Source: Methanobacteriota archaeon
GTDB taxonomy: Archaea > Thermoplasmatota > Poseidoniia > Poseidoniales > Thalassarchaeaceae
Length of the DNA: 62,505 nucleotides
Reading direction: 5' to 3'
Assembly (NCBI GenBank): GCA_002713585.1
Contig: PATD01000038.1
Coordinates: 5,362-67,866 of the forward strand
The number at the start of each line of letters is the position of its first letter. Within the stretch, counting starts at the first letter, position 1. The position numbers and the translations under genes are program-made. The notes under the pieces are model-generated. The model worked only from the letters and a program-made list of their open reading frames with translations. It made no database searches and was not told the origin of the DNA. Positions 22,401 through 43,653 of the stretch are shown here, in pieces.

Positions 22401-25400
22401 CGAGAATCAGACCTCCATTGTCTTCTTGTATAATTCGGACTGGAATAGCCAGCTTAGAAGAGATATTCGAACCTGTATTTGCTGCATCTTGTAGATGATT
22501 GAGGCGATAATTCTCTATTGATGAACCGAGATTGGAAATGTTGGAGATGATGTGCTGGTCCACACTAAGCAAGGTCACAGAACCAGTAAAATCCTGGTCT
22601 GCTGTGACATGGAACACGACATCTCGAATAGGTATCTGGTGAGCTGGACCGAGTACCAACTGACCAATAGAAGATGACTGGCCTTGACGGAGTTCCGCAC
22701 CACTCATGCTAATCATAGAGAAGTCGCCTGCAGAGATGGTTTGCGTCCATGAACGCTGACCCATTGCGACTGTTACTGTTACATTTGTACCAGTATGAGC
22801 ACGCATCATCATCGTTGCAGTACGCCAATCAGCATCATCGACTAGGCTCATCTGAATTGAGCCATTAATCGATGATTCGTTTGATTCTAGATTCGATCCC
22901 TGCATCAAGCCATATGGAAGGGCGTTACCTTCACCGTCATCAGGCCAAGACCATTCAACCAGACCATCTGATAGGACATCAATCTCTGGACCAAAGGAAG
23001 GTGTTGCGAGATGAGGATGAATACTCAATTGTTCCAAATCCGCTCCTGGTTGGAAATCTAACACAAATGCAAGAGTTGTTGCGGGTCTGAAGAGAGAAAC
23101 TGTGCCATTACTAATCATCGACGAATGTACGGAATTTCCATCCGCAAAGACCTCTATCATGACACCGGCAGAAATTGATTCTAAGGAGAAAGATTCGATT
23201 CTGCGCTCAGAAATGATGGTTGGCCCATCAACGCGCTGTGTCATGAAAGTTGGATTCTCAATTCGTCCTTCCACCTCGTGTACAATCAATGGGGGGCTAA
23301 CGCCCCAACCTGTTGTAAAGGCCGCTTGACCAGAGAGGAAGCGGCTGCCGTTAATGGATACCTGTTCGATACGAGGTGTCCTATGTTCGTCCATCGTTTC
23401 CATCGTGATTTGGATATGGATACCTGAACTCGAATCAAAGGATGTTAATCCGTAGAGATCGGCAAGATGCACAGGAAGAGTTCGATTCTCCATCCCAAGA
23501 ATCGGTATACCTTGTGAATCAAGTATAGATGCCTTGATTGCAGTTCTATTTGGTACACTTCCCTGAACATCAACGGAGCCCCAGCCTAAGGAATCAGGTG
23601 CTTGAATCAATGGTGAAGTCCACGTCCCCTTATCACGAAATACGTCTACGGTAATACCGACGTTGTCCACATACCAACCACTGGATTCGAAGTAGGTGTC
23701 TGAGAAGAATGAGAACCTGAGCATTACACTCTGACCTGCGAGATGGCTCAAATCCGCCGTCTTGGTAACGAAACTGGTGTTAGTCCCACAACCGCCTCCC
23801 TTCACTCGAGAGCCATCCCAAGCCATCTGTCCATAAAACGGACTGAGAGTGTTGTTGTAATGCATCGAATCATACCAATCCATGATATGAGAGCCAAAGT
23901 GAGACCAAGAGTGACCGTAGTCGGTCGAAATGTAGAGGGCACCCCCATCCCAACCACTTTCTGCACAGATGAAGTGATCAAATTGTAGAGTTGCTCGACT
24001 CCCGTAAGGAATAGGGATCGATGGTGATTCCAAATGAGAATACGAATTCTGCCGATAAGCCGCATTCAAGACGGTCCCGGCACCATTCCCCCCCCCTGGA
24101 AAAGAGGCGGGGTCGGGCCCAGTGCTATTCAGTTCACCAAATGCCCAACCATATCCAGCCTCTGTTCTAATGTTCCAATCCATCGGCAACATACTTGCAT
24201 CCTCAAAGGATTCCATTTCATCCCAAGGACCATTCATCCCTTGGTTCGAGATATGCCGCCACTGGTCCACTTTACCAAGAACAACGGAGGAATGATTCGC
24301 ATCCGATGTATCGTTAAACCGCCATGCTGCATGTTCAATTTCAGTTTGACCGGAAATCTCGACAATTCGGACATCATCCAGCATGAGACCTTCTGGAGGG
24401 TCAATTGTCAAGCCACCAAAACCAGTGCCTCCTGTCGGGTCAGATTGAAAGCGAAAACGTAACCAGATCGTTGTGTTATATCCATTAGGAATCGCATGCT
24501 GAAGGGATACCCAGCCATTTGAATCATCGATTATAGTAGTCCCATTTACATAGACACCGTGCCCAGGAAGACCAATCATAGGAGTGATGCCTGTCCAATT
24601 GGTACCATCCGTGCTCATCTCGACATGCCAGTTGTCGTAGATATCCCCCTCCATATCGAAATCCGCTGCATACTGTAGAACCATGGGGCCATTGACAGAG
24701 GAGAGGTCTGCTTCCATAACCAAAGCAGCGTTTGCATCCGGTGAATATTCTCCATTCAGGTTGCCATGGAACCACGCACCAGGCGCATAACCGTCATTGC
24801 TCACCTGAAGACGATCTACGAACCAGCCTGGACGATCGATGGATTGTGTAATCGGTGTCCAAACTACGAGGCGAAAACGGAACTTACTCGCGTTAACAAT
24901 ATCTGGATTATCGTCTAAAACGAAGGAAGAACGAACCCAGCCGCTCGCATTAACGGATGCCCATACAGGGAATCCTGAACCATTCGCTCCATTTGGAACA
25001 GGGGCAGCAGTGGATATTGTATTCCCATAACCCTGCTCAGGTTCAATCCACGACCAGTTAGAGCCACCATCAAAAGAAACCTCTACCCATGCTCCAGCTC
25101 CGGTGCCAGACATATCCGAATCAGTCCAAAGATGAAACCAGTGATCCATTGTGAAGGTCAGATTTTCAACATGTGCTGGCATGGACCAATCCGGACCAGT
25201 TAACCATGAATGTGTACCTGGAGCGATACTAATATTCGGTTGAGTCATGGCAACAAAATCCCCATCTGTGGCGAATCTAGGTGCGTGACCACCCCCATTA
25301 GTCCGAGCTGTCATCGACTGACCTACAGGATTGTTGACGTTGACTACAGTTCCATTTAGGCTAGATACATCAGTAATCTCCCAAACACTGGTTGTCCCCC

Positions 25401-25797
25401 CGGGAATCCAACCCTCAAATCGACGATGAAGATTCTCAAAGTCATGAATCCTACCATGATTGTCAGCATTCGACAAACTAAGATCTCCATTGAACAACGT
25501 GGAGGAAGCATTGTGATGTGAGCCATGGGAGAAATTTCTGCCAGGAGTGTCACTCGACCAACCTGGAACGGTGAAGATATCGCTGCCATCCGAATCTATC
25601 GTAACCCATGCATCGGTGACTGTTCCGTTGGTCTCAATGCTAAAGCCTTCAACGATTGTATCATCCAATAACGTGCTTTCAGGACCCGTCCAAGGCACGT
25701 CATCAGCAGATACAACTGAAACTATTGGACTAAGGCTCATCATCACCATGAGAGTCACGAGGGAGAGGGCAGATGCCTTCCCGCGTGTAGGGTCCAT
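19435..25797 (-). CDS. Giant (2120 aa) secreted cell-surface protein with signal peptide, several jelly-roll/MAM-like modules and a C-terminal TM anchor plus acidic/proline-rich cytoplasmic tail
   Basis: Uninterrupted 6.36-kb ORF. N-terminal SALSLVTLMVMMSLSPIVSVVSADD. Module ends GWFVDRLQVSN, LMLDDVRIVE and GWYVDNVGITV. C-terminal IGLLVIVFTSFGFLIGIIV followed by DWDDDEDD...PDRFPDDDGEE. Confidence 0.75.
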   Translation of the reverse strand: MDPTRGKASALSLVTLMVMMSLSPIVSVVSADDVPWTGPESTLLDDTIVEGFSIETNGTVTDAWVTIDSDGSDIFTVPGWSSDTPGRNFSHGSHHNASSTLFNGDLSLSNADNHGRIHDFENLHRRFEGWIPGGTTSVWEITDVSSLNGTVVNVNNPVGQSMTARTNGGGHAPRFATDGDFVAMTQPNISIAPGTHSWLTGPDWSMPAHVENLTFTMDHWFHLWTDSDMSGTGAGAWVEVSFDGGSNWSWIEPEQGYGNTISTAAPVPNGANGSGFPVWASVNASGWVRSSFVLDDNPDIVNASKFRFRLVVWTPITQSIDRPGWFVDRLQVSNDGYAPGAWFHGNLNGEYSPDANAALVMEADLSSVNGPMVLQYAADFDMEGDIYDNWHVEMSTDGTNWTGITPMIGLPGHGVYVNGTTIIDDSNGWVSLQHAIPNGYNTTIWLRFRFQSDPTGGTGFGGLTIDPPEGLMLDDVRIVEISGQTEIEHAAWRFNDTSDANHSSVVLGKVDQWRHISNQGMNGPWDEMESFEDASMLPMDWNIRTEAGYGWAFGELNSTGPDPASFPGGGNGAGTVLNAAYRQNSYSHLESPSIPIPYGSRATLQFDHFICAESGWDGGALYISTDYGHSWSHFGSHIMDWYDSMHYNNTLSPFYGQMAWDGSRVKGGGCGTNTSFVTKTADLSHLAGQSVMLRFSFFSDTYFESSGWYVDNVGITVDVFRDKGTWTSPLIQAPDSLGWGSVDVQGSVPNRTAIKASILDSQGIPILGMENRTLPVHLADLYGLTSFDSSSGIHIQITMETMDEHRTPRIEQVSINGSRFLSGQAAFTTGWGVSPPLIVHEVEGRIENPTFMTQRVDGPTIISERRIESFSLESISAGVMIEVFADGNSVHSSMISNGTVSLFRPATTLAFVLDFQPGADLEQLSIHPHLATPSFGPEIDVLSDGLVEWSWPDDGEGNALPYGLMQGSNLESNESSINGSIQMSLVDDADWRTATMMMRAHTGTNVTVTVAMGQRSWTQTISAGDFSMISMSGAELRQGQSSSIGQLVLGPAHQIPIRDVVFHVTADQDFTGSVTLLSVDQHIISNISNLGSSIENYRLNHLQDAANTGSNISSKLAIPVRIIQEDNGGLILDGHVIQSPLMTDEVLLHPTTIVPDTDFDIVTEHHHLFDVDEIDRIRLELDISGIESNPSFVLNPIDAGSVQTIDPAGFTIGNPIVERRAYSYRVTWPLTMDWSLDDAEWVKIHAKGFDSLNRTWGPAVATIGLGGLNGIENDMEIVGFTAVDSLDRSLLNSGVYGYPLHLSPLSPIEVSGQVRFEGIVGDIPDSSAAVAVIIEMGGDNWSFPAGPVGTDGSWTATISIPDIEVELPDSVWNITARMIRVGPAEENRNQALDNTLIDHPGQFRIDRVAPLIGRLLADISGIQRPLDQDVWSLSRPLIMSVEVDEVESLSRTIQIHSWIENINDLDGDGIPQPDEYNSRPIVVPFNAHEIGRIDLGLLDISMGMDGAMVSIYVTGVDASGRPFIGGGGPGLHADIASFTLAEERPTRIERNEVLMDHTEGYLLHASTHTVSLVVADENGFISIDEIHLWLSGVGEEAGHLLYHPLLGELSASTSSALIPMGSEFIPSDTSGNRGLLNLSFAIGENAPFEWTLSNQVPGITVIEDERTLDLDLLTLADLTWNLDHRTSWQVLEVQDLTAPFGRIDSGVIHAWDGDALLCRLQIIHERNGAPLSAPPVGRNVQADPHFDENLETTPGVIVNGTVDMSGIVEFVLVLPQMEIDSDGIIRVRLDSTGEIAWGGRDIDVVVDRTAPRIEFLQTSLAAVQTNGLETQQVSFSILDEGGVAEEEVDLHWTFRRFGVDLPGSIGYESIGPVKRQGLVYGVSESVDISTIEPQNLEDGDQLVVWLTFTDLAGNPVEGIGSQYEPRAPVLRVVWFEPSIEPISVDPQPAHLNRFVDVDLWIRDTGNEGGSVEVSLLAWKQDGLIERWIEQNRTTIELMPGGSVRESFEVETWAVGQMLLLAVIDGDIENGTMLPAIEVIDPDAQRGFLDSVIEGDLNSIGLLVIVFTSFGFLIGIIVQRNPAAEDWDDDEDDIPLPETPPARPKSWPSPPDRFPDDDGEE

Positions 25798-35152: not shown

Positions 35153-35671
35153 ATGGCAAGGCGAAGGATGAGGAAGAGGAAGCCCGTACGACTGAAGGTC
35201 GTACGACGTATCCTCGATTCCCTAAATGAGAATCTGGGCATCGAGGACGACTTCTCCGACGTCTTTCTTGAAATCGCAGAATTCGGTGAACTAAACCTCC
35301 TGCTTGGTGATCGTGTTCCTCTTGTAATGACAATTAATCGACCAGAAGATCTAGGCGATGTTGCAGCAGTGACTTTTCCTACGCTTCGTGGACTCTTGCG
35401 CTGGAATCTCGAAGTTGGCTGGTGCGCTGTCGACAGGGGTGCGATTCCATTTCTGATGAATGGTGCAGATTGTATGGCAGCCGGCGTACAGATGGTGGAC
35501 CCGAACATCGAACAAGGCGACCTAATCTGGATTCGTGACGAGGAACATGGCAAACCAATCGCAATGGGTTGGGCATTGTTAGATGCTGAAGAAATGAATG
35601 CTGCAACCAAAGGCAAGGCTCTCAGAACAGTCCACTGGATTGGTGACGACCTGTGGGAAATGGAGAATTAA
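35153..35671 (+). CDS. PUA-domain RNA-binding protein (pre-PUA + PUA; MCT-1/Tma20/Nip7-like)
   Basis: C-terminal VDRGAIPFLMNGADCMAAGV...GDLIWIRDEEHGKPIAMGWALL matches the PUA pattern. Confidence 0.7.
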   Translation: MARRRMRKRKPVRLKVVRRILDSLNENLGIEDDFSDVFLEIAEFGELNLLLGDRVPLVMTINRPEDLGDVAAVTFPTLRGLLRWNLEVGWCAVDRGAIPFLMNGADCMAAGVQMVDPNIEQGDLIWIRDEEHGKPIAMGWALLDAEEMNAATKGKALRTVHWIGDDLWEMEN

Positions 35672-35724
35672 GGTCTATGCCCTCGGGAATAGCATTGAAT
35701 AGGTCAAGTACACGAACAATATGT

Positions 35725-36303
35725 ATGAGGCCTCTGATTCCACTTACACTAGTCATGATTCTAATCTCAGCTGCCACTGTCTCTGCTGCGTCAGAAGGAG
35801 GCGTAAACAAATCAGTCGACGAGTTTGCAGATACTGGAATTGACAATGTGGATTCACCCTCTGTCTTCAGTCAAGTTGAGGATTTCGTAATCAGTGTAAA
35901 TATCAACGAAAGTTCAGATGCAGTGAAAATCTACGCGACTACACAAATTTGTGTGAACTCTGGTCTCTGCTATCCTCCTGAACAAATCGAGATGGTAACG
36001 GAGGATAATACCACATGGACTACCACTGTATCACCAATGACTGATCAGACCTACGTGAATTGGAATATTATTCTTGAAAACGCATCAGAGAACCAGACAA
36101 AAATTCCCGAGACTGGATTCGGTTGGAAGGTCTGGTCCGATTGTTGGAACGATGGAACGGGTTGGGGCGGTGAAGGTTACGAAGGTGGCGAGAGTTGCGA
36201 TGATGTATTGGTCTCAGGAGATCCTGAAGGGACTGTTCCTACAGTAGGTATCGCTGCAGTGATTTCTGTTTTCGTAATGGCTGCAATCATCCGTCGTCAT
36301 TGA
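35725..36303 (+). CDS. Small secreted/membrane-anchored acidic protein, hypothetical
   Basis: Signal peptide MRPLIPLTLVMILISAATVSAAS. C-terminal TM VGIAAVISVFVMAAII-RRH. Start trimmed from 35653. The 3' end overlaps the convergent 36287..36733 gene by 17 nt. Confidence 0.55.
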   Translation: MRPLIPLTLVMILISAATVSAASEGGVNKSVDEFADTGIDNVDSPSVFSQVEDFVISVNINESSDAVKIYATTQICVNSGLCYPPEQIEMVTEDNTTWTTTVSPMTDQTYVNWNIILENASENQTKIPETGFGWKVWSDCWNDGTGWGGEGYEGGESCDDVLVSGDPEGTVPTVGIAAVISVFVMAAIIRRH

Positions 36304-36733
36304 TTGTAACGTGTTCGATAAAACGAGATAGACATCGCCTTGCTTCAATACCCCAAGCTTCGATTAGCACTTGAGCCCCACATCCATCAGCATCAATTTG
36401 CCCCTCTCTTAGCCCAGGTGATGCAAGATCACTAGGGACGAACGGAAGACGAAACTCACTCTCAAAGATAAGTTGGACTGCGTCCTCACCTATGGCTACC
36501 GTTAACCCTTGAACCGTGAGGTTTCCGTCCTCAATGGATTCTATTTCACATCCAATCGAACGAAGATGACGCACTACTGCATCGAAAATCTCCTCAGGAG
36601 GGGCCTTTGCTTGCGAGATATCCTCTTCCACCTCGGATGCCGGACCATATGCAGATAGAAACGGAAGATCCATCTCATTTTGAGCCATGAGATCGTCTAA
36701 CCCGCGACCAAGTCCGCGTCTCTCATCACTCAT
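36287..36733 (-). CDS. ParA partner protein: ParB-like N-terminal ParA-activating peptide fused to an unrecognised acidic domain
   Basis: Begins MSDERRGLGRGLDDLM (ParB/Spo0J N-terminal motif). No ParB box or HTH recognised afterwards. The start overlaps the parA stop (ATGAGTGA). Confidence 0.6.
   Translation of the reverse strand: MSDERRGLGRGLDDLMAQNEMDLPFLSAYGPASEVEEDISQAKAPPEEIFDAVVRHLRSIGCEIESIEDGNLTVQGLTVAIGEDAVQLIFESEFRLPFVPSDLASPGLREGQIDADGCGAQVLIEAWGIEARRCLSRFIEHVTINDDG
36686..36721 (-). other. Codons for the ParB-type N-terminal peptide RRGLGRGLDDLM
   Basis: Direct translation of the minus strand, checked codon by codon. Confidence 0.8.
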
Positions 36734-37706
36734 CTCGAAGACCTCCTGGGAACCAAATTACTTCAAGTTCGGAAGCCAATGCTGCATAATCTTGGCCACC
36801 ATGACTCTGTGGAGCATGAAACTGAATCGGGACGCCCTGACTCGGCGATTCTGCAAGGCGAATGTTACGTCTAATCGCCGGTTCTATGACTAAATCGCCG
36901 AATACTTCTCTGAGGTGGCCTGCAACCTGCGTATTCAGGAGGGTGGGCGCATGCATAGTCATAATCACGCCATCCACACCAAGACGGGGATTGAGTAAAC
37001 GTCGCACTTCGTTGAGAGTTCCAGTCAACAATGCGACCCCTTCCAGAGCAAGATACTCCGTTTGTACGGGTATTAAGACGGCATCTGAAGCTGCCAACGC
37101 GTTGATTGACACGATACTCAAGGAAGGGGCTGTGTCGATTAGGATTAGATCGTAATGTGGCTTGAGCGGTTCAAGAGCCTCACTGAGGCGACCCTCTCGT
37201 CCTAGTTGTGATGCAAGAGCCTCTTCCAAACCAATGAGGTTTCTATCGCCAACAATTAGATGGAGGCCTTCCACAGCAGTCGCATGGCGAGCTTGCGTCG
37301 CCATCGCGGGCGTAAGCACAACATCTCTCGTCGTAATGGTGACTCTCGACTTGTCAATACCTAAGCCAGAAGCACAATTCCCCTGAGCGTCGCAATCCAC
37401 AACAAGAACACGCCCCCCTCTCATCGCAACATGTGCTGCGATATTGATTACCGAAGTGGTCTTCCCAACTCCACCTTTCTGATTGGTCACAGTAACTACA
37501 CGTGCAAGACCTGCAACTGTTGGTTCAGCCCTAGGTAATTCGATCGACTCGCGGGGACGGGCCTTCGTATCGAATCCCTCTGATTCAACCGGGTGTTCAA
37601 CTTCGTTAAATGAGACATCTGTGATGAGATTATCATCAATAGACAATATGTCCACGACTGGATACTCATCCGAACCCATCGTTACCTCAGCGAATGCCTG
37701 AGGCAT
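36726..37706 (-). CDS. parA: ParA/Soj-family chromosome-partitioning-type ATPase with a ~70-aa N-terminal extension
   Basis: VTVTNQKGGVGKTTSVINIAAH deviant Walker A. VVDCDAQGN. ILIDTAPSL. LNPRLGVDGVIMTM and AESPSQGVPI blocks. Confidence 0.85.
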   Translation of the reverse strand: MPQAFAEVTMGSDEYPVVDILSIDDNLITDVSFNEVEHPVESEGFDTKARPRESIELPRAEPTVAGLARVVTVTNQKGGVGKTTSVINIAAHVAMRGGRVLVVDCDAQGNCASGLGIDKSRVTITTRDVVLTPAMATQARHATAVEGLHLIVGDRNLIGLEEALASQLGREGRLSEALEPLKPHYDLILIDTAPSLSIVSINALAASDAVLIPVQTEYLALEGVALLTGTLNEVRRLLNPRLGVDGVIMTMHAPTLLNTQVAGHLREVFGDLVIEPAIRRNIRLAESPSQGVPIQFHAPQSHGGQDYAALASELEVIWFPGGLRDE

Positions 37707-37742
37707 TCAAGGTGACGCCCGTATAGAGGTTAGAGTGACGTT

Positions 37743-39842
37743 TCATTCAGTCGTACTTTGGAGCCAGCCTACCATCCGGCCTCGTTCCGCGTCCATTATC
37801 AGATCGAAAGAATGCTCTGATTCCCCTTCTGACCATGATCTCGTGGCTGTGAAAGTAACCTCACCCTCGTCGATATCATCAATGAAATCAAGGAGGTCTG
37901 TATCTTGTGTGACTACGAGACGTGAGGTGAATTCTACGTCTGAACGTAGTGTACCTCCATCCATCAACACCTGAGTCGCTCCAAGGAAATCTGACGTATC
38001 CATCATTCTCGATTGCATCTCAGAAATTGACAAAGTATTGGGAACCGCATTGAGGTTGTACTCTGGAGCATCCGATGGGGCAAGAGTTCCGTCATTTACA
38101 ACTGTACAATTGTTGCCTGAAGAACGTACTAAAGTCCATCCCGCATCGGAATCAGGGTCAACCCAACTAAGATTCCATGTCTCCTCAACACCATCATTTG
38201 CATGGTTCATTCTGTACAGGTAACCATCGTTATTGAGGGCGGAACGAACACCATTTCCTGCGCTCGAATTCATGAGGCATTCGACTGCTTCTTCAACTGT
38301 GAATGCATGGACTGCTGATTCATCAGGCATGTGCCCATCCCACTGCACCTGCGTATTTGGGATTCCTTCACCAGCACCTGGTCGACTATTGTATAAGTCG
38401 CCCCAAACAATCGCACGTTCCCCTGCAGTGAAAGTAGATTCGCGAAGTGTGTAGGTGATTACCAACTGACCATCGGGAACCGCGAAGTCAAGGGCTGCTG
38501 ATTCATGCCAACTACAATCACTCGATTCACGGGCTTTGTCAATGAGGATGTCCACCTTCTGCTCCACAGGCCACGGCGCCCCCTCGCGTACGAGAAGGTC
38601 GATCTTCGCATGACCAAGGCATGTGGCAATACTCGGTTGCTCCATCTTGATAGGTACAAGAATTTCACCGTTTACGCGCTGTGTAGGCTCAACAGTATAG
38701 TCCCAACCTTCTGCAGTTCCGGTTGACCCCTCCTCAAGAATAATGGAACCAAAGGTAGAACGCAAATCCAGTGGTACCGCGGGTTGCAAAAAAAGCGGTA
38801 ATGCTTCATCTATAGCTGTGATTCCTGTACCTCCAAAGGCAGTGTTCTTCAACATACTCCGATCCCCATCGGGGGTGACGAAGTCCAGTGTAGCTTCAGA
38901 ACGGATGGTTGTCGATTCAGTCAACTCCTCCCAAGAAGTAACAGAGATATCCACTGAATTCGCATTCATTTCCCATGTGAGACTACTACTACAACGACTC
39001 CCGTCATTGGTCCATGTCCTACCTGAGAGGTCAGCTAGAAGATCGTAAGAAAGCGATCGTTCGGCTGCAAGATGAATGCGGCCATAACCGTCCCTCGTCT
39101 CAGTAGCTCCAGCATTGTCCCGATCAGTAGGGTCACCAATCTCCGATGTCGGAGCATCACGATAGGCGATACTCGACAGCCCATTCATTGTAATTGCAAG
39201 ATCCCCACAAGCCTTCTCCAATGCCGATCCCGTATTGTCACGAAGCAGAGCGACCATGTCGTTACCATTGACTTGAACTGAACCGCCCGTCATAGTGAAA
39301 TCCATACTATCTCCATAGCGTGCAGGTTCAACAGCGAAAGCTTGCTGATCCTGCATCCAAGTCCACCAGTAGCCTCCACCGGCCAAAGCCGCTACTAGGA
39401 GGAGGCCCCCAAGGAAAATGGCTCGACTCGGCTTGCTACTATCACCCAAGGAAACGGAGGCGTTTAGCTTACTACGTGCCTCAGCCCTCGGCTTGGATTC
39501 CGGTGAATCTACAATCACAGCTTCTAGAATAGTTGCCTCAAGAATCTCGACACTCTCTTTCTCAACCTTGGGTTCAATTACAGGGGAGGGATCTTCTAAA
39601 GGGAGCTCAGACGATTCTGTCTCCTCTTCTTCAAGAAGGAGGAAACCCTCATCCTCGTTGGACTCTTTTATCTCTGATAGAACCTCTTCATCAGGGCCCT
39701 TAGTATCCTGTTCATCAAGCCGCAGAGAATCGATAATTCGATCAATTAATTCTGACTTTTTTCCAGAACGGGGAAGCCCCATCGCTTCGAGAAGAACCTT
39801 GAGATCGGCGACTGTTCGCTTCTCAAGATCACCTCGCTTCAT
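37743..39842 (-). CDS. Membrane protein: cytoplasmic SAP/HeH-like motif, acidic linker, one TM helix, ~525-aa extracytoplasmic domain
   Basis: N-terminus RTVADLKVLLEAMGLPRSGKKSELIDRIIDSL fits the SAP/Rho_N helix-extension-helix pattern. TM IFLGGLLLVAALAGGGYWWTW near aa 150-172. Same strand as parA and 36 nt upstream of it. Confidence 0.6.
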   Translation of the reverse strand: MKRGDLEKRTVADLKVLLEAMGLPRSGKKSELIDRIIDSLRLDEQDTKGPDEEVLSEIKESNEDEGFLLLEEEETESSELPLEDPSPVIEPKVEKESVEILEATILEAVIVDSPESKPRAEARSKLNASVSLGDSSKPSRAIFLGGLLLVAALAGGGYWWTWMQDQQAFAVEPARYGDSMDFTMTGGSVQVNGNDMVALLRDNTGSALEKACGDLAITMNGLSSIAYRDAPTSEIGDPTDRDNAGATETRDGYGRIHLAAERSLSYDLLADLSGRTWTNDGSRCSSSLTWEMNANSVDISVTSWEELTESTTIRSEATLDFVTPDGDRSMLKNTAFGGTGITAIDEALPLFLQPAVPLDLRSTFGSIILEEGSTGTAEGWDYTVEPTQRVNGEILVPIKMEQPSIATCLGHAKIDLLVREGAPWPVEQKVDILIDKARESSDCSWHESAALDFAVPDGQLVITYTLRESTFTAGERAIVWGDLYNSRPGAGEGIPNTQVQWDGHMPDESAVHAFTVEEAVECLMNSSAGNGVRSALNNDGYLYRMNHANDGVEETWNLSWVDPDSDAGWTLVRSSGNNCTVVNDGTLAPSDAPEYNLNAVPNTLSISEMQSRMMDTSDFLGATQVLMDGGTLRSDVEFTSRLVVTQDTDLLDFIDDIDEGEVTFTATRSWSEGESEHSFDLIMDAERGRMVGWLQSTTE
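39723..39842 (-). other. SAP/HeH-like motif coding segment (aa 1-40)
   Basis: L-x2-(R/K)-T-V-A-D-L-K-x-L-L-x3-G-L-x3-G-K-K-x-E-L-I-D-R-I. Confidence 0.55.
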
Positions 39843-39934: not shown

Positions 39935-41284
39935 TCATTGACCGCCGCGATATTTTGCGATTTGTTCAGCGGACCATCCCGCAGCAAGGAGTTGCTCATC
40001 GGTGTACTGATCAATCTGTGTGGCCCCAGAGTTGTCATTTTCGTCACTTTGCTGAACCTCGTTAGCAGAAACCTGTTCTTCTTCAATGGGCTCACTGACA
40101 GCTTCCTCGGCCTCAGCAACAATATCTGTCGAAGATTCTTCCTCCGATGACATCTCCTTGGACATCACTGGACTTTCATCGGCGGCATCAGTGTTCTCTG
40201 CACCTGTAGTTAGATCCATGCCAAGTTCACGCTCAGCATCGGCAGCATCGAGTACCTGTTTCTCTGTTGATTTGTCTGAAGTCTCAGGATATCTGACCCT
40301 CTTGTACGCAACACCTGCCTTCTGTGCACCAATGAGGGCGGCTCCCAGTAGGGGGAGGATAAGTAGGCAGATTGGGAGCAGTAAGGCGCGTGGCCAAAAC
40401 ATCTGAGCCTCTGCATCCACAGTAGCCTTCCATTGGTAGTTCGTACCCTGCCATTGGTCAGAATTCAGTTGTTGGCCTTCGATGTACTGAAAGACGAGGC
40501 AATGCCGACCTGGCTTCACTGTAAGAGCATATTCCACCTCTTGACCCGAAGGAAGAGCAGGCGCATCTGACCGATCATAACGAATCACCTGAGATTCTGT
40601 CGTAATGTCCTCCATCAACGAGGAAGACTCCCAAGGAAGTGAAGGAGACATCATTGCGCAACCATCTGGTGCTTCAAATAAGCCAAGGCGGAAAGAGGTG
40701 TTTCCACCATCGAAGCGATGGCCCTTGAGACTCACTTTAACTTGAACATCGTTGATTGGACCAAGATCAAGGATAGGGAAACCAATCATCAATTGATTCA
40801 AATCTTGTTCAAACGAGCCTGCATTAGAATCACTGCCATCCCAAATCTTGTTTTCAGCACGATCATTTACCTCCTCTAGTGACCAATGGGGATTTGGATT
40901 CGCATCTGAAGTGTCCATCCAAGACTCGACCTCGATTGCACTAAGATTCTGATGCGGATTCACAGTATGATCTCCTTGAGTCACAGGGAAAAACGAGAAC
41001 GTGAACAGAATAGTAAGAACCCCAAGAACAAGATAGACATTCATTCTCTTGTTGGAGCGGTTCTCCTTGAGGTTACTCAATTGCTTTTCTCGACGCTCCT
41101 TTCGGTTCCTTCGATCCTCCATCTCTGAGATGGGATCAAACGCTGCTTCTGGAGCGGACTTCGGGCCAACAGGTGGGGCCACTGATGGGCCTTGGACAGA
41201 GGCTGATGGCCCTGCAGATGATACCTCGCTAGCGGGTGGATTCCCGGGCTGCATGGCTTGACCGATGACGGACTTCGATTTCAA
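39935..41284 (-). CDS. Two-TM membrane protein: Pro/Ala-rich and basic cytoplasmic N-terminus, ~220-aa outside domain, acidic cytoplasmic C-terminus ending in a GW motif
   Basis: TM1 VYLVLGVLTILFTFSFFPV. TM2 LLLPICLLILPLLGAALIGA. C-terminal DQYTDEQLLAAGWSAEQIAKYRGGQ. Confidence 0.55.
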   Translation of the reverse strand: MKSKSVIGQAMQPGNPPASEVSSAGPSASVQGPSVAPPVGPKSAPEAAFDPISEMEDRRNRKERREKQLSNLKENRSNKRMNVYLVLGVLTILFTFSFFPVTQGDHTVNPHQNLSAIEVESWMDTSDANPNPHWSLEEVNDRAENKIWDGSDSNAGSFEQDLNQLMIGFPILDLGPINDVQVKVSLKGHRFDGGNTSFRLGLFEAPDGCAMMSPSLPWESSSLMEDITTESQVIRYDRSDAPALPSGQEVEYALTVKPGRHCLVFQYIEGQQLNSDQWQGTNYQWKATVDAEAQMFWPRALLLPICLLILPLLGAALIGAQKAGVAYKRVRYPETSDKSTEKQVLDAADAERELGMDLTTGAENTDAADESPVMSKEMSSEEESSTDIVAEAEEAVSEPIEEEQVSANEVQQSDENDNSGATQIDQYTDEQLLAAGWSAEQIAKYRGGQ

Positions 41285-41351
41285 TCGAACCCATGTCTTC
41301 GATGCGCCCTCTCAAGGGATGATTTGAAGATGGGAACGGGTGGCTCGGCGA

Positions 41352-42515
41352 ATGATGAGAGCGATGCGTCTGTGCATCCTATCCCGCGGCCCACAGCTGT
41401 ATAGCACACGACGGCTGGTAACTGAAGCAGAAAACCGCGGAGCAGAGGTAGAAATTGTCGATCCGTTAGAAACAAGCCTCGTTCTCGGCGAACGGAATGG
41501 ACAGGTTATCCACCGTGGCTGGCCTATTCAGGCTGACGCAGTTATTCCAAGAATTGGTTACTCAGTGACATCTGAAGGCGTGCGTGTTGTCCGACAATTC
41601 GAATCACAAGGCGTCTATGTTGCCAACTCAGCCGACTCTATCCTTCGCAGTCGGGACAAGCTAACAGCATCTCAAATTCTGTCGCATCAAGGAATCCCAG
41701 TCCCACGGACCGCACTTGTAACATCTTGGCGAGATACTGAAAGGGCAATCTCGAGAGTTGGTGGGGTACCTTGTGTGATTAAGGCAAGTCAAGGGACTCA
41801 AGGAGACTCTGTCCATCTTGCTCATTCAATTCGAGATGCAAAGGAACTTGCCTACCGTTTACTTGCAAATAGAGAAACTGTTCTCGTCCAAGAGTATATT
41901 CGAGAAAGTCATGGAAGGGATGTACGAGTAATTGTGGCTGGGGGCGAAGTAGTTGCTGCGATGCGCCGTGTGGCAAGGGGGCGTGAATTCCGGTCCAACT
42001 TCCATCTTGGAGGTCAAGTGGAGACGATTGAATTAGAGGATGAATATGCTAAGGTTGCTATTCGTGCTGCAAATCTCCTTGGTATTGAGGTCGGCGGGGT
42101 TGATCTCCTTGAAGGACGAAGTGGTCCAATCCTCCTTGAAGTCAATTCAAGTCCAGGATTAGAAGGAATTGAGAAAGCTTCGAAGATAAATGTCGCAGGG
42201 AGAATCATCGACATGGTTTCACAGCGTCATAGAATTCAGTCAACAGATCTCCAACAAGTTATCCGCCGTCGCTCAGGCCATGGGGCATTGACTATTCGAA
42301 TCAAGGATTGGCCTGAGTTCATCGGGCGACGAATCAAAGATGTGCAAATGGGAGATTCACGCGCATTGACGCTGTTGCGTGGCAAGGACCATATCTGGTC
42401 CCCAAACGAGAATCTAGTTCTACAGCCAAACGATGAACTGGTGATCTATGGGGAAATCGCTTCGATTCGCACGCATATGCAAGGGCACGACACTGCTTCG
42501 GAAGAAAGATTCTGA
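41352..42515 (+). CDS. RimK-type ATP-grasp ligase fused to a C-terminal RCK_C/TrkA_C-like domain
   Basis: MRLCILSRG...YSTRRL, VIKASQGTQGDSV, GRDVRVIVAGGEVV, FRSNFHLGG and GVDLLE...LEVNSSPGLEGIE are RimK/ATP-grasp blocks. The tail ...IGRRIKDVQMGDSRALTLLRGKDHIWSPNENLVLQPNDELVIYG is TrkA_C-like. GTG at 41340 is an alternative start. Confidence 0.7.
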   Translation: MMRAMRLCILSRGPQLYSTRRLVTEAENRGAEVEIVDPLETSLVLGERNGQVIHRGWPIQADAVIPRIGYSVTSEGVRVVRQFESQGVYVANSADSILRSRDKLTASQILSHQGIPVPRTALVTSWRDTERAISRVGGVPCVIKASQGTQGDSVHLAHSIRDAKELAYRLLANRETVLVQEYIRESHGRDVRVIVAGGEVVAAMRRVARGREFRSNFHLGGQVETIELEDEYAKVAIRAANLLGIEVGGVDLLEGRSGPILLEVNSSPGLEGIEKASKINVAGRIIDMVSQRHRIQSTDLQQVIRRRSGHGALTIRIKDWPEFIGRRIKDVQMGDSRALTLLRGKDHIWSPNENLVLQPNDELVIYGEIASIRTHMQGHDTASEERF

Positions 42516-42600: not shown

Positions 42601-43653
42601 ATGGGACCCATGGACGACCAACGACAGCGGAGCGGATGGGCTGCAGACGGCCCAGCGGGCCGCATCGCTACTCCTTTCGATTCATCTATCACAGGGAACA
42701 GCCAAGTCCTCCCTGCACGCCTAGTTCGAATCCAGCATCTTTCCTGTCTTCCACTTTGGGAGACCCAATTAAGATCGGAAAAGAAGAGCAATCATACAAT
42801 CCGGTCATACATGTCCACAGCACGACGATTCTCGGCGACGGTTATACCGGGAGAAGAGGAGGTCGATATTGAGGAGATATCGATTACAGAAATGCATGAC
42901 CGCTGTAATCCGAACAATGGGCGTCTGGACCTATTCATCCAAGCTATCGCTAATCTAAGACCTGCAACAATCAACGCACGTATTGCTGCACTGAGTCATC
43001 TGTTCCGTTACATAGGGCACAGGATACCTGATTGGGTACATCGGCCCACTTCTTCTCGGCCTCTACCACGAACCCTCACTAGAGAGGAGGTCATGCGTGT
43101 TCGTAGGGCTGCTCAAGATTCCGAAAATCCGCTTGCTCAACCCATCATTACGCTTCTCCTCGATACCGGAATGCGGGTATCCGAGTTATGCGCTCTTGAG
43201 ACCGGAACCATCGATCTAGCTGACCGTTCAGCCCGAGTCTATGGGGGGAAGGGTGACAAGGACCGGACCGTCTTATTCACAGAACGCTCAGTAAATGCAA
43301 TGGAAGCCTGGTTCGGAACACGGCGACTATTGGTCCAAAGAAGGAATCCACCTAACGAGGATGTAGATGCTGTTTTTCTAACCAATCGTGTTGCACGCAT
43401 CAGCACTCGCTATGTTCAGAAGATGATGGACGTCATTGCCGACGATGCCCTCATCCCGAGAACGCGTCTGACACCTCATACCCTAAGACACAACTTCGCA
43501 ACTGGCCTTCTTGAACGAGGAGTAGATCTTGTCTCAATCCAGAGGCTTCTAGGGCATTCTAACATTCAAACGACACGAATCTATCTGGATATTAGTGATC
43601 AGACGTTGAGAGAAATCTACCACCGGGCCCAGAGTGCGTCTCTAGAAGAGTAA
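42601..43653 (+). CDS. xerA: Tyrosine recombinase (XerA/XerC/XerD-like)
   Basis: Core-binding block SNHTIRSYMSTARRF. Catalytic residues in DTGMRVSEL (R), HTLRHNFAT (H-x-x-R) and LGHSNIQTTRIY (H, Y). Confidence 0.8.
   Translation: MGPMDDQRQRSGWAADGPAGRIATPFDSSITGNSQVLPARLVRIQHLSCLPLWETQLRSEKKSNHTIRSYMSTARRFSATVIPGEEEVDIEEISITEMHDRCNPNNGRLDLFIQAIANLRPATINARIAALSHLFRYIGHRIPDWVHRPTSSRPLPRTLTREEVMRVRRAAQDSENPLAQPIITLLLDTGMRVSELCALETGTIDLADRSARVYGGKGDKDRTVLFTERSVNAMEAWFGTRRLLVQRRNPPNEDVDAVFLTNRVARISTRYVQKMMDVIADDALIPRTRLTPHTLRHNFATGLLERGVDLVSIQRLLGHSNIQTTRIYLDISDQTLREIYHRAQSASLEE

What the first reader, a model, noticed from the sequence alone, without database searches (positions are those of the whole stretch)
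36287..37706. Soj-type ParA coupled to a partner that keeps only the ParB N-terminal activating peptide
**Seen in sequence.** parA (36726..37706) encodes a bacterial-style deviant Walker A ATPase (NQKGGVGKTT). Its stop overlaps the start of a 148-aa ORF (ATGAGTGA). That ORF begins MSDERRGLGRGLDDLM.

**Established knowledge.** This stretch is nearly identical to the conserved N-terminal peptide of chromosomal ParB/Spo0J/Noc (K/R-R-G-L-G-R/K-G-L-D/E-A-L). In ParB, that peptide contacts ParA/Soj and stimulates its ATPase through an arginine.

**What is unusual.** In the remaining ~130 residues I cannot recognise a ParB box, a CTP-binding GxxRxxA block or an HTH. The region is also strongly acidic, which is unexpected for a centromere-binding protein.

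**Inference.** ParB appears to have been replaced by a new adaptor that retained only the ParA-activating peptide. It could be a novel archaeal centromere-binding protein. Alternatively it could be a cargo adaptor, comparable to the adaptors of ParA/MinD-type cargo-positioning systems.
Basis: partly seen in the sequence, partly recalled or inferred. Interest (0 to 1): 0.72.

Follow-up and report, generated by a model that had tools for sequence, protein, structure and literature searches.

The report
ParA partner carrying a ParB-type peptide
In abundant uncultured marine archaea (Marine Group II), a bacterial-type DNA-segregation ATPase (ParA) is paired with a small undescribed protein instead of ParB; it carries ParB's short ParA-binding peptide on an unrelated fold, and related genomes show the same peptide fused to a membrane transporter-like protein.

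Summary
parA (36726..37706, -) is a Soj-type ATPase, 43% identical to Myxococcus ParA. Its stop overlaps by 8 nt the start of a 148-aa ORF (36287..36733, -) that begins MSDERRGLGRGLDDLM.

The ORF is not a ParB. It has no Pfam, NCBIfam or PDB sequence hit. Residues 45-148 fold with pLDDT 95 into a double-wing / secretion-chaperone-like domain (weak matches: T4 MotA C-terminal domain, SycT, YjbR).

The family is small (about 44 clusters at 50% identity), and all 31 genome loci found with it are Poseidoniales-type (two carry bacterial labels).

L8, R10, L12, L15 and M16 match the five residues shown to be critical in Myxococcus ParB. The motif is intact in about 70 of 72 ParA-linked orthologues. 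It is degenerate or partly lost only in lineages that lack parA at the locus. In another lineage it is fused to an EamA-like membrane protein directly after parA.

New caveats:
- A membrane-anchored SAP-domain protein is the most constant same-strand neighbour, more constant than parA.
- Some parA-less genomes keep the peptide.
- A second motif (DLPFLSAYG) and the globular domain persist without parA.

Best reading: a non-ParB ParA-activating partner whose cargo is still unknown. The SAP membrane protein is the leading candidate. This is a new variant of a known kind.

The parts
36726..37706 (-). parA: Soj-type ParA ATPase, 326 aa, with an acidic N-terminal extension of about 65 aa
   Evidence: Pfam AAA_31, E 8.6e-51. 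Closest solved structures are M. xanthus ParA 8RAY (E 7e-55) and T. thermophilus Soj (E 3e-51); SegA only 3e-11. K77, K82, D104, D106 and N110 are invariant in 102 Marine Group II orthologues. Position 283 (the M. xanthus R238 DNA-binding position) is always R or K. Peptide-pocket positions L196, I198, I201 and L238 are almost always hydrophobic.
37458..37487 (-). Deviant Walker A motif TNQKGGVGKT (residues 74-83; signature Lys77, catalytic Lys82)
36287..36733 (-). 148-aa ParA partner ('adaptor') ORF. Its ATG overlaps the parA stop by 8 nt.
   Evidence: No Pfam, NCBIfam or PDB sequence match. The family has 42-44 clusters; all 31 genome loci found with it look Poseidoniales-type, two under bacterial labels.
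36741..36746 (-). GGAGGT Shine-Dalgarno-like hexamer 7 nt upstream of the adaptor ATG, inside the 3' end of parA
   Evidence: Read directly from the sequence.
36686..36718 (-). Motif 1, residues 6-16 RGLGRGLDDLM: ParB-type ParA-binding motif. L8, R10, L12, L15 and M16 correspond to M. xanthus ParB L11, R13, L15, L18 and I19.
   Evidence: Family invariants R6, L8, R10, G11, L12, D14. The critical ParB residues are taken from PMC12462528. Only match to LG[RK]GL..[LIMV] in six frames of the window. Intact in about 70 of 72 ParA-linked orthologues; degenerate or partly lost only in parA-less loci.
36644..36670 (-). Motif 2, residues 22-30 DLPFLSAYG: a second conserved short linear motif in the disordered N-terminal region. 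Partner unknown.
   Evidence: F25 and L26 are invariant across the whole family, including parA-less members. A similar GPDLSSFV follows the peptide in the EamA fusions. AF2 pLDDT is about 50 for residues 1-44.
36290..36601 (-). Globular domain, residues 45-148: alpha-beta sandwich of the double-wing / secretion-chaperone-like class. Conserved R55, LPxVPSDLxxPG (96-107), W127, R132, R133, R137, E140.
   Evidence: AF2 pLDDT 95, pTM 0.86. Foldseek PDB: MotA C-terminal domain 1kaf (E 0.022, prob 0.99, TM 0.52), SycT (prob 0.87), YjbR (prob 0.85). BFVD: phage G gp54 (E 9.5e-4) and MotA. Conservation.
37743..39842 (-). SAP-domain membrane protein, 699 aa, 36 nt upstream of parA. Layout: SAP/HeH DNA-binding domain (residues 5-41; 39720-39830), acidic linker (42-140; 39423-39719), one predicted TM helix (about 141-162; 39357-39422), ectodomain of about 535 aa.
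   Evidence: Pfam SAP, E 7.6e-11. TM from a hydropathy scan. Wherever the upstream sequence is in the fetched locus it lies directly upstream of parA or of the adaptor, except configuration D and L156. All relatives detected are of similar length and almost all carry the SAP domain.
39935..41284 (-). 449-aa protein with two TM helices, 92 nt upstream of the SAP gene. Probably the first gene of the same transcription unit. No known domain.
   Evidence: Conserved upstream of the SAP gene in most complete loci.
35653..36303 (+). Convergent 216-aa gene (N-terminal hydrophobic signal-like segment plus C-terminal TM). Its 3' end overlaps the adaptor's 3' end by 17 nt. It stays adjacent to the adaptor in configurations A, B and D wherever that flank is in the locus; in some ParA-plus-adaptor loci and in configuration C it lies 2-3 kb away. 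Listed as context, not as a proven component.
   Evidence: Weak DsbD_N hit below threshold.

Best explanation
The 148-aa protein is the ATPase-activating partner of the Marine Group II Soj-type ParA. It is not a ParB.

**Shown**
- Its first ~44 residues are predicted disordered.
- They carry a ParB-type ParA-binding motif (L8-G-R10-G-L12-D-D-L15-M16).
- That motif is conserved wherever parA lies next to the gene.

**Inferred by analogy with M. xanthus and T. thermophilus ParB**
- The motif folds into a short helix that docks in the hydrophobic pocket at the interface of the DNA-bound ParA-ATP dimer.
- R10 helps trigger ATP hydrolysis and release of ParA from the nucleoid.

**Fold shown, role inferred**
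- Residues 45-148 form a double-wing / secretion-chaperone-like domain. This domain replaces the ParB body and connects the peptide to the cargo.

**Least certain step**
- The cargo is probably the cytoplasmic part of the co-transcribed SAP-domain membrane protein. That would make a three-part system of DNA/membrane tether, adaptor and ParA, in which a ParA gradient on the nucleoid positions or separates membrane-attached chromosome contacts.

**Supporting observation**
- The N-terminal module is portable. In the Thalassarchaeum-type lineage the same two motifs sit at the N-terminus of an EamA-like membrane protein encoded directly after parA.
For: 1. **Gene coupling.** 8-nt overlap with parA and a GGAGGT ribosome-binding-like site.
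2. **ParA is a complete bacterial-type enzyme.** 43% identical to M. xanthus ParA. Catalytic residues are invariant, the DNA-binding position is always R or K, and four of six peptide-pocket positions are hydrophobic in 102 orthologues.
3. **The motif matches the functional residues of ParB.** It matches residue for residue the five positions shown by mutagenesis to be critical in M. xanthus ParB (PMC12462528). It is unique in the window.
4. **Comparative coupling.** The motif is intact in about 70 of 72 distinct ParA-linked N-termini. The only degenerate forms are in loci without parA: KKGSLDHLM, KSRDLDHLM, KSRDFDHLI and the partly degenerate SDGRGLDHLM.
5. **Independent second scaffold.** Ten ParA-EamA loci encode KRGLGRGLxxI...GPDLSSFV fused in frame to an EamA-family membrane protein.
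6. **Not ParB.** No family hits and no ParB among fold matches to a pLDDT-95 model.
7. **SAP-TM gene as neighbour.** It sits directly upstream in configurations A, B and C wherever the upstream sequence is in the locus, across both families of the order.
8. **Precedent.** Partners of ParA/MinD ATPases generally act through an N-terminal region on otherwise unrelated proteins (PMC11407121). Haloferax HpaAB pairs a bacterial-origin ParA with a novel archaeal partner.
Against: - No binding or ATPase data exist.
- Nine locus clusters have SAP-adaptor with no parA. Most of them keep a perfect LGRGLDDLL. None of those 12 MAGs appears among 113 ParA loci found with a ParA-specific pattern. So the peptide is kept without a detectable cognate ParA, either through another ParA-like ATPase, a recent loss, or another role.
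- In one abundant lineage the adaptor stands alone with neither SAP nor parA nearby, yet keeps motif 2 and the domain. The domain therefore has a ParA-independent function.
- About two-thirds of the ParA-EamA loci lack any peptide next to a ParA whose catalytic and pocket residues are conserved.
- Two of the six M. xanthus pocket positions are Glu/Gln/Asp here.
- The SAP linker motifs do not co-vary cleanly with presence of the adaptor.
- The best fold match, MotA C-terminal domain, is a DNA-binding domain, and YjbR shares that double-wing fold (my recollection). Four arginines are conserved.
Confidence: 0.6

Rival explanations
1. A novel centromere-binding protein. The double-wing domain binds specific chromosomal DNA as the MotA C-terminal domain does. 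The protein would then be a functional ParB analogue (DNA binder plus ParA-activating tail, like ParG, omega, SegB or HpaB). The SAP protein would be an unrelated neighbour.
For: - The top fold match is the T4 MotA DNA-binding domain (prob 0.99, TM 0.52); YjbR, which shares that double-wing fold (my recollection), also matches (prob 0.85).
- R55, R132, R133 and R137 are conserved. Some family members have net positive domains, up to +6.
- The domain persists without parA, as expected for a DNA-binding regulator.
- All other characterised archaeal ParA partners bind DNA.
Against: - Fold matches are weak (E about 0.02, TM about 0.5). They equally include a type III secretion chaperone, a protein-binding protein.
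- The window protein's domain has net charge -13, with 7 Arg and 0 Lys in 104 residues.
- No repeat array or convincing palindrome cluster lies near the operon.
- The same peptide works from a membrane protein with no DNA-binding domain.
- A dedicated DNA-binding (SAP) domain is already encoded in the operon.
Confidence: 0.2
2. The protein's main job is ParA-independent, for example as a chaperone or regulator of another partner that binds motif 2 and the domain. The LGRGL motif would be an accessory element, or would serve a different ParA/MinD-family ATPase encoded elsewhere.
For: - Motif 2 and the domain are the most conserved parts. They survive in lineages lacking parA, and in one lineage lacking the SAP gene nearby as well.
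- Five distinct parA-less N-termini keep a perfect LGRGLDDLL.
- The same-strand SAP gene is a more constant neighbour than parA.
Against: - Motif 1 is found only downstream of parA or in clear descendants of that arrangement. It is degenerate in four of the ten distinct parA-less N-termini seen (one more is partly degenerate) and in at most about 2 of 72 ParA-linked ones.
- The motif reappears on EamA exactly where parA is upstream.
- Translational coupling with parA.
Confidence: 0.15
3. A highly divergent or truncated ParB whose ParB/Srx CTPase and HTH domains are simply unrecognisable by sequence.
For: The N-terminal peptide and the position after a Soj-type parA are exactly those of ParB.
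Against: - With 148 aa, only 104 residues remain after the tail.
- The AF2 model at pLDDT 95 is an alpha-beta sandwich with six or seven strands. It has no Foldseek match to any ParB, Srx, KorB or HTH structure among 518 PDB hits.
- No ParBc or HTH hit in any of 29 members.
- An exhaustive HMMER search of 1.84 billion representatives returned no protein of ParB-like length or architecture; nearly all hits are small proteins of about 50-185 aa.
Confidence: 0.02
4. Chance resemblance: the N-terminal sequence merely looks like the ParB peptide and has no function.
For: The motif is short, with five defining residues.
Against: - One occurrence in six frames of 62.5 kb, located exactly after parA.
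- Invariant across orthologues whose domains have diverged to 30-45% identity.
- Independent occurrence on EamA proteins after parA.
Confidence: 0.03

Closest known systems
Bacterial chromosomal ParABS (Soj/ParA with Spo0J/ParB), as dissected in M. xanthus (PMC12462528) and T. thermophilus
   Same: - The ParA is of this type: 43% identity to M. xanthus ParA, same catalytic motifs, same DNA-binding basic position.
- The partner gene lies directly downstream and is translationally coupled.
- The partner starts with a disordered tail carrying the LGRGLxxL[IM] motif, with the same five critical residues.
   Different: - The partner has no ParB/Srx CTPase domain, no HTH and no ParB C-terminal dimerisation domain. 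Its body is an unrelated 104-residue alpha-beta domain.
- No parS-like repeats were found.
- The host is an archaeon.
- Clamp closure, which juxtaposes the two peptides in ParB, has no counterpart here.
Haloferax volcanii HpaAB (bioRxiv 10.1101/2025.11.19.689047)
   Same: - Two-gene operon with a 4-8 nt overlap.
- A ParA of bacterial origin is paired with a novel archaeal partner that has no ParB similarity and uses an N-terminal helix to engage ParA.
   Different: - HpaB is a ribbon-helix-helix DNA binder that forms foci and acts as a centromere-binding protein.
- HpaA clusters with MipZ/McdA rather than Soj.
- HpaB's N-terminus is not described as matching the ParB consensus.
- No SAP membrane protein is involved.
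Crenarchaeal SegAB and the three-part pNOB8 AspA-ParB-ParA system
   Same: - Archaeal ParA-type ATPases with non-canonical partners whose N-terminal region contacts the ATPase.
- pNOB8 (from my own knowledge) separates DNA binding (AspA) from the adaptor (ParB) and the motor (ParA), as I propose for SAP protein, adaptor and ParA.
   Different: - SegA is only distantly related to this ParA (E 3e-11).
- SegB is a helical DNA-binding dimer. It is confined to Thermoproteota and a few Euryarchaeota (Thermococcus, Methanobacteriales); the preprint's text never mentions Thermoplasmatota or Poseidoniales.
- The pNOB8 adaptor still contains a ParB-like domain.
- Neither system uses a membrane-anchored DNA binder.
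Cargo adaptors of ParA/MinD positioning systems (McdB for carboxysomes, PomX/Y, ParP and TlpT for chemoreceptor arrays); review PMC11407121
   Same: Unrelated partner proteins contact their ATPase through an N-terminal region, and the rest of the protein binds a non-DNA cargo. Membrane-associated cargos are known, for example chemoreceptor arrays.
   Different: - Those partners have system-specific N-terminal peptides. Here the peptide is the chromosomal ParB consensus itself, and the ATPase is a chromosomal Soj-type ParA.
- The cargo here is unidentified.
Double-wing / secretion-chaperone-like folds: T4 MotA C-terminal domain (1kaf), E. coli YjbR (2fki), Yersinia SycT (2bsh)
   Same: Same order of secondary-structure elements and similar size. 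Foldseek probabilities are 0.85-0.99 and TM 0.44-0.53 for the pLDDT-95 model.
   Different: - Sequence identity is 8-19% and E-values only about 0.02-0.16.
- No family-level sequence signal.
- The three matched proteins do different things: sequence-specific DNA binding (MotA), effector binding (SycT) and, for YjbR, no function I can assign. The match therefore does not assign a function.

Membership tests
ParB/Spo0J/Noc (ParB/Srx superfamily partition proteins) | N-terminal ParB/Srx domain with the CTP-binding GxxRxxA box (Pfam ParBc) | tested here: not met
   No ParBc hit for the window protein or any of 29 family members at E<=1. No NCBIfam hit. No ParB or Srx structure among Foldseek matches to the pLDDT-95 model.
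ParB/Spo0J/Noc (ParB/Srx superfamily partition proteins) | Central helix-turn-helix parS-binding domain and C-terminal dimerisation domain | tested here: not met
   The model of residues 41-148 has three helices and six or seven strands in one alpha-beta domain. No HTH family or fold match. Only 148 aa in total.
ParB/Spo0J/Noc (ParB/Srx superfamily partition proteins) | Disordered N-terminal ParA-binding motif (hydrophobic-G-R/K-G-hydrophobic-x-x-hydrophobic-hydrophobic) | tested here: met
   L8-G-R10-G-L12-D-D-L15-M16 corresponds to M. xanthus ParB L11, R13, L15, L18, I19. AF2 pLDDT is about 50 for residues 1-44. The motif is conserved in the family.
ParA/Soj (chromosomal-type ParA; applies to the neighbouring gene 36726..37706) | Deviant Walker A with signature lysine (KGGxGK[ST]), Walker A' and B aspartates, and the basic residue for non-specific DNA binding | tested here: met
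   K77, K82, D104, D106 and N110 are invariant. Position 283 is R or K in 102 orthologues. Pfam AAA_31 8.6e-51. Best PDB matches are bacterial ParA/Soj.
ParA/Soj (chromosomal-type ParA; applies to the neighbouring gene 36726..37706) | Hydrophobic ParB-peptide pocket at the dimer interface (M. xanthus V116, L150, L152, L155, L187, L192) | tested here: inconclusive
   Four of six positions are almost always hydrophobic (L196, I198, I201, L238). The other two are E/Q/D (E162, E233). Whether the pocket binds the peptide cannot be tested without modelling the complex.
ParA/MinD partner proteins (functional class: ATPase-activating adaptors) | Encoded next to the ATPase, and interacts through an N-terminal region that stimulates ATP hydrolysis | tested here: inconclusive
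   Adjacency and translational coupling are met. The motif co-varies with parA presence. The interaction and ATPase stimulation themselves are not testable with these tools.
SegB (archaeal SegAB partner) | Sequence homology to Sulfolobus SegB, with a helical DNA-binding dimer | tested here: not met
   Sequence searches of the PDB, which contains SegA-SegB entries such as 7dv3, returned no match to a SegB or any other partition protein. The predicted fold is an alpha-beta sandwich, not helical. The SegB distribution reported in PMC12139799 does not include this order.
Type III secretion class I chaperones / SCOP 'secretion chaperone-like' fold (SycT, YjbR) | Small alpha-beta(3)-alpha-beta(2-3)-alpha sandwich. 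For true chaperones, also a homodimer that binds an extended effector segment. | tested here: inconclusive
   The fold class matches with modest scores: SycT prob 0.96 and 0.87, YjbR prob 0.85, TM 0.4-0.5. No CesT- or YbjN-type Pfam hit. Dimerisation and peptide binding are not testable here.
MotA C-terminal 'double-wing' DNA-binding domain | Double-wing fold with a DNA-contacting beta-sheet face | tested here: inconclusive
   Best PDB match is 1kaf_D (E 0.022, prob 0.99, TM 0.52, 13% identity). MotA also appears in BFVD. The conserved arginines lie in the predicted helices, not in the strands. DNA binding was not tested.

The most novel reading that the evidence does not exclude
Marine Group II archaea may use a membrane-coupled chromosome organisation and segregation machine with no described counterpart. 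In it, a single-pass membrane protein with a cytoplasmic SAP/HeH DNA-binding domain tethers DNA to the membrane. That layout resembles eukaryotic inner-nuclear-membrane LEM/HeH tethers. A bacterial-type ParA on the nucleoid is then coupled to the membrane through a portable ParB-derived activating peptide. Evolution has grafted that peptide onto different carriers: a soluble double-wing adaptor in most lineages and an EamA-type membrane protein in Thalassarchaeum. The ParB body would have been discarded after horizontal acquisition of parAB, leaving only its ~40-residue tail as a transferable module.
Probability: 0.25. Interest if true: 0.8.

Novelty: new variant of a known kind. Interest (0 to 1): 0.6.

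Why it matters
- **Biology of an uncultured group.** Marine Group II archaea are among the most abundant archaea in surface oceans and have no cultured member, so nothing is known about how they organise or segregate their chromosome. This locus gives a concrete, testable set of candidates: ParA, a peptide-bearing partner and a membrane-anchored DNA-binding protein.
- **General lesson about the ParB peptide.** The locus is an unusually clean natural experiment. The ParB ParA-binding peptide behaves as a self-contained, transferable module. It appears on a non-ParB fold and on a membrane protein, and it is degenerate or partly lost in several lineages that have lost parA from the locus.
- **Links to current work.** This ties in with efforts to define specificity determinants of ParA/MinD partners and to engineer minimal positioning systems.
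- **Limits.** The idea that unrelated partners use N-terminal peptides is already established, and archaeal hybrids such as HpaAB are already reported. The advance is a new variant, not a new principle.

Tried and rejected
- **Divergent ParB:** rejected on family scans and on two AF2 models with Foldseek.
- **SegB-like partner:** rejected.
- **PDB sequence search with the 39-aa tail:** no hits; the query is too short.
- **tblastn of the 30-aa tail against plasmids, to recover ParB N-termini directly:** only one irrelevant weak hit. The ParB comparison therefore rests on residues named in PMC12462528 and on my own knowledge of ParB N-termini.
- **Full-text search for 'LGRGL' with ParA:** nothing relevant.
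- **Paper searches for ParA with Poseidoniales and for SAP domain with archaea and ParA:** no prior description of this locus found.
- **Centromere-like repeats around the operon:** only short two-copy matches of the kind expected by chance. One 17-18-nt palindrome at the parA start has a second imperfect copy and was not followed up.
- **Bacterial promoter and terminator scan:** uninformative for an archaeon.
- **Co-variation of a SAP-linker motif (acidic-hLhL-acidic) with adaptor presence:** it looked promising in a small alignment but failed when all loci were examined, because adaptor-less loci have similar motifs elsewhere in the linker.
- **Relaxation of the ParA peptide pocket where no peptide-bearing neighbour exists:** none seen.
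- **A displaced adaptor in ParA-EamA loci:** none between EamA and the downstream conserved gene in the one locus inspected.
- **PIP-box or FtsZ-tail-like readings of DLPFLSAYG:** considered from memory and dropped, because the key positions are not conserved in the family.
- **Acidity as an argument against DNA binding:** dropped, because the proteome is acidic and the family's domain charge spans -12 to +6.

Full report
**1.

On the minus strand, ORF 36726..37706 encodes a 326-aa protein with the deviant Walker A motif TNQKGGVGKT. ORF 36287..36733 encodes 148 aa beginning MSDERRGLGRGLDDLM. The two overlap by 8 nt (ATGAGTGA). A GGAGGT hexamer lies 7 nt upstream of the second ATG.

The first protein is a ParA (Pfam AAA_31, E 8.6e-51). 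Its closest solved relatives are bacterial chromosomal ParA/Soj proteins:
- M. xanthus ParA 8RAY: E 7e-55, 43% identity over 250 columns.
- T. thermophilus Soj: E 3e-51.
- H. pylori Soj: E 1e-38.
- The archaeal SegA reaches only E 3e-11.

'Soj-type' is therefore correct. The flanking genes are chromosomal housekeeping genes: family B DNA polymerase, EF-1 alpha, ribosomal protein S8e, SRP19, RimK and a Xer-like recombinase (gene tables). Related loci all come from Poseidoniales (Marine Group II) genomes.

**2. The 148-aa protein is not a ParB**

- It has no Pfam, NCBIfam or PDB sequence match. None of 29 family members hits ParBc or an HTH family even at E<=1.
- An exhaustive HMMER scan of 1.84 billion representative proteins found only 44 relatives. 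Nearly all are small proteins of about 50-185 aa (one weak hit is 1065 aa), and none has a ParB-like length or architecture. A word-indexed search of 5.8 billion proteins found 42, named 'hypothetical protein' or unnamed.
- AlphaFold2 predicts residues 1-44 as disordered (pLDDT about 50) and residues 45-148 as one compact domain.
- A domain-only model built on 39 sequences reaches pLDDT 95 and pTM 0.86.
- Foldseek against the PDB gave these best matches:
  - T4 MotA C-terminal 'double-wing' DNA-binding domain: E 0.022, prob 0.99, TM 0.52.
  - Type III secretion chaperone SycT: prob 0.87.
  - E. coli YjbR: prob 0.85.
- The viral library gives Bacillus phage G gp54 (E 9.5e-4) and MotA.
- No ParB, Srx, KorB or HTH structure appears.
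- The fold class is clear, but it does not assign a function.

**3. The N-terminal motif is the ParB ParA-binding motif in functional detail**

In M. xanthus ParB the motif spans residues 11-19. [quoted passage not shown] R13 is needed for ATPase stimulation, although it is not a catalytic arginine finger. A 20-residue peptide is sufficient when DNA is present (PMC12462528).

The window protein has L8, R10, L12, L15 and M16 in the same register. In ParA:
- The catalytic residues are invariant across 102 Marine Group II orthologues.
- The DNA-binding position corresponding to M. xanthus R238 is always R or K.
- Four of the six pocket positions are almost always hydrophobic. The other two are Glu, Gln or Asp.

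The pattern LG[RK]GL..[LIMV] occurs once in all six frames of the window, in this ORF.

**4. Comparative genomics gives the strongest evidence and changes the picture**

I collected 160 related loci from these sources:
- a search of 185,579 species-representative genomes with the adaptor profile;
- a scan of the same genomes with a Marine Group II ParA-specific peptide pattern, TMHAPTLLN;
- look-ups of diverged family members.

Four arrangements exist:

| Configuration | Gene order | Locus clusters | Notes |
|---|---|---|---|
| A | SAP-TM, ParA, adaptor | 57 | The window's arrangement |
| B | SAP-TM, adaptor | 9 | No parA within 6 kb; seen in a subset that includes Poseidoniaceae-labelled MAGs |
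| C | SAP-TM, ParA, EamA-like membrane protein | 15 | No adaptor; Thalassarchaeum-type lineages |
| D | Adaptor alone | not counted | Abundant lineage; neither SAP nor parA nearby, downstream synteny kept |

A locus cluster here means loci merged when they share an exact 50-mer.

Three results bear on function.

- **Motif 1 tracks parA.** Among 72 distinct ParA-linked adaptor N-termini, motif 1 is intact in about 70. Every degenerate or partly degenerate form lies in a locus without parA: KKGSLDHLM (L040, L041), KSRDLDHLM (P0069, configuration D), KSRDFDHLI (P0066) and the partial SDGRGLDHLM (P0064).
- **The peptide occurs on a second scaffold.** In ten configuration C loci the EamA-family protein (Pfam EamA, E 1.1e-23) carries an in-frame N-terminal extension, KRGLGRGLxxI followed by GPDLSSFV. 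This has the same two-motif layout as the adaptor tail. So the peptide sits on two unrelated proteins, both directly after parA. That is hard to explain unless the peptide is a ParA-directed module.
- **The peptide can outlast parA.** Five distinct configuration B N-termini keep a perfect LGRGLDDLL. None of the 12 MAGs concerned appears among the 113 ParA loci recovered. These are incomplete MAGs, so a diverged ParA-like ATPase elsewhere cannot be excluded. As it stands, the peptide is sometimes kept without its neighbour.

**5. What else is conserved**

- **Motif 2.** A second short motif, [DE]LxFLxxYG (DLPFLSAYG, residues 22-30), is the most conserved part of the family. F25 and L26 are invariant, and the motif survives in all four configurations.
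- **The globular domain.** It also survives everywhere. Its conserved residues are R55, LPxVPSDLxxPG, W127, R132, R133, R137 and E140.
- **Consequence.** Motif 2 and the domain therefore serve a function that does not require parA in cis.
- **The SAP gene.** The most constant same-strand neighbour is the 699-aa SAP protein gene (37743..39842). Its layout is:
  - a SAP/HeH DNA-binding domain (Pfam E 7.6e-11);
  - an acidic linker of about 100 residues with repeated hLEAEhhEAEh-type motifs;
  - one predicted TM helix;
  - an ectodomain of about 535 residues.
- Its detected relatives are all of similar length and almost all carry the SAP domain; the few that sources name are 'hypothetical' or 'SAP domain-containing protein' from euryarchaeal MAGs.
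- **Other neighbours.** A 449-aa two-TM protein gene lies upstream. A convergent 216-aa membrane protein gene overlaps the adaptor's 3' end.

**6. Mechanism I consider most likely**

*Shown:*
- gene coupling with parA;
- identity of the motif with the functionally mapped ParB motif;
- a ParA whose catalytic, DNA-binding and most pocket residues are conserved;
- a non-ParB fold;
- co-variation of motif 1 with parA;
- portability of the tail.

*Inferred:*
- The tail docks at the ParA-ATP dimer interface and, with DNA, triggers hydrolysis and release from the nucleoid, as in bacteria.
- The globular domain and motif 2 attach the tail to a cargo.

My best guess for the cargo is the cytoplasmic part of the SAP membrane protein. 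That would give a three-part tether-adaptor-motor arrangement, analogous in logic to pNOB8 AspA-ParB-ParA (comparison from my own knowledge). The EamA fusions fit this view, because there too the activator sits at the membrane.

The cargo step is weak, for three reasons:
- The SAP-linker motifs do not co-vary with adaptor presence.
- Configuration D lacks the SAP gene nearby.
- The complex could not be modelled here.

The main rival is that the double-wing domain binds DNA, which would make the protein a true ParB analogue like HpaB or SegB. The MotA and YjbR fold matches and four conserved arginines keep this alive. Against it:
- the fold scores are weak;
- the window protein's domain has net charge -13;
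- no centromere-like repeats lie nearby;
- the operon already encodes a dedicated DNA-binding domain.

**7. Relation to what is known**

Unrelated ParA/MinD partners acting through N-terminal regions are well established (PMC11407121). Archaeal examples with novel partners exist:
- SegAB;
- Haloferax HpaAB, a bacterial-origin ParA with a ribbon-helix-helix partner.

I found no description of this Poseidoniales family, of a chromosomal-ParB-consensus peptide on a non-ParB scaffold, or of its fusion to a transporter-like protein. I therefore rate it a new variant of a known kind.

Whether the peptide descends from an acquired ParB or arose convergently cannot be decided from sequence. Two facts make descent with body replacement plausible: the Soj-type ParA, and the demonstrated ability of the tail to move to another protein in this same clade.

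**8. Verdict**

| Question | Verdict |
|---|---|
| Observation | Confirmed |
| Confidence that this is a non-ParB ParA-activating partner | About 0.6 (higher for the peptide-ParA link alone, lower for the SAP cargo) |
| Interest | 0.6 |

Noticed in passing
window 37743-39842 (-): The SAP-domain membrane protein has a cytoplasmic SAP/HeH DNA-binding domain, an acidic linker, one TM helix and a large ectodomain. This resembles eukaryotic inner-nuclear-membrane LEM/HeH chromatin tethers in layout. All detected relatives look like the same Marine Group II family, and they are unnamed or annotated hypothetical / 'SAP domain-containing protein'.
   Followed up: partly
L110 1655-2629 (-); also L055, L077, L085, L101, L104, L113, L131, L145, L153: EamA-family membrane proteins encoded directly after parA carry an N-terminal KRGLGRGLxxI...GPDLSSFV extension. 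About 22 sister loci (for example L045 and L048) have the same EamA gene without the extension, next to a parA whose catalytic and pocket residues are conserved.
   Followed up: partly
window 39935-41284 (-): 449-aa protein with two TM helices, a basic N-terminal tail and an acidic C-terminal tail ending in ...YTDEQLLAAGWSAEQIAKYRGGQ. No Pfam hit. Conserved upstream of the SAP gene in most complete loci, so it is probably the first gene of the operon.
   Followed up: no
window 35653-36303 (+): Convergent 216-aa gene (N-terminal hydrophobic signal-like segment plus C-terminal TM anchor; sub-threshold DsbD_N hit) whose 3' end overlaps the adaptor gene by 17 nt. It is still adjacent in the lineage that lost both the SAP gene and parA from the locus; in some ParA-plus-adaptor loci and in ParA-EamA loci it lies 2-3 kb away.
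   Followed up: partly
window 37691-37708 and 38265-38282: Palindrome CGAATGCCTGAGGCATTC spanning the parA start codon, with a second 89%-identical copy 574 nt away inside the SAP gene. Two-copy matches of this size are often chance, and conservation in other loci was not checked.
   Followed up: no
window 41340-42515 (+) and 42601-43653 (+): RimK-type ATP-grasp ligase with a TrkA-C domain, followed by a Xer-like tyrosine recombinase. Both are divergent from the operon. The same pair is seen next to the locus in L005, L006 and L008.
   Followed up: no
window 36726-37706 (-), ParA residues 1-65: ParA has an acidic N-terminal extension of about 65 residues (pI 4.05), absent from the crystallised bacterial cores. 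Conserved patches (DVSF.E; R....LP...PT..G.ARV) occur across Marine Group II orthologues.
   Followed up: no
window 19435-25797 (-): A 2120-aa ORF, the largest in the window. Not examined.
   Followed up: no
L028, L034, L066, L101: Contigs carrying this typical Marine Group II locus are filed under bacterial names (Deltaproteobacteria, Yoonia, Salinimicrobium, Gammaproteobacteria). They are probably mis-binned contigs in those assemblies.
   Followed up: no
L131 (first 8 kb of a 1.60-Mb contig, MGIIb-O1 LRMED-022): The SAP-ParA-EamA locus lies at the very start of a near-complete single-contig genome. Other large contigs with the locus also exist (1.18 Mb; 1.97 Mb). They could be used to place the locus relative to replication origins.
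   Followed up: no
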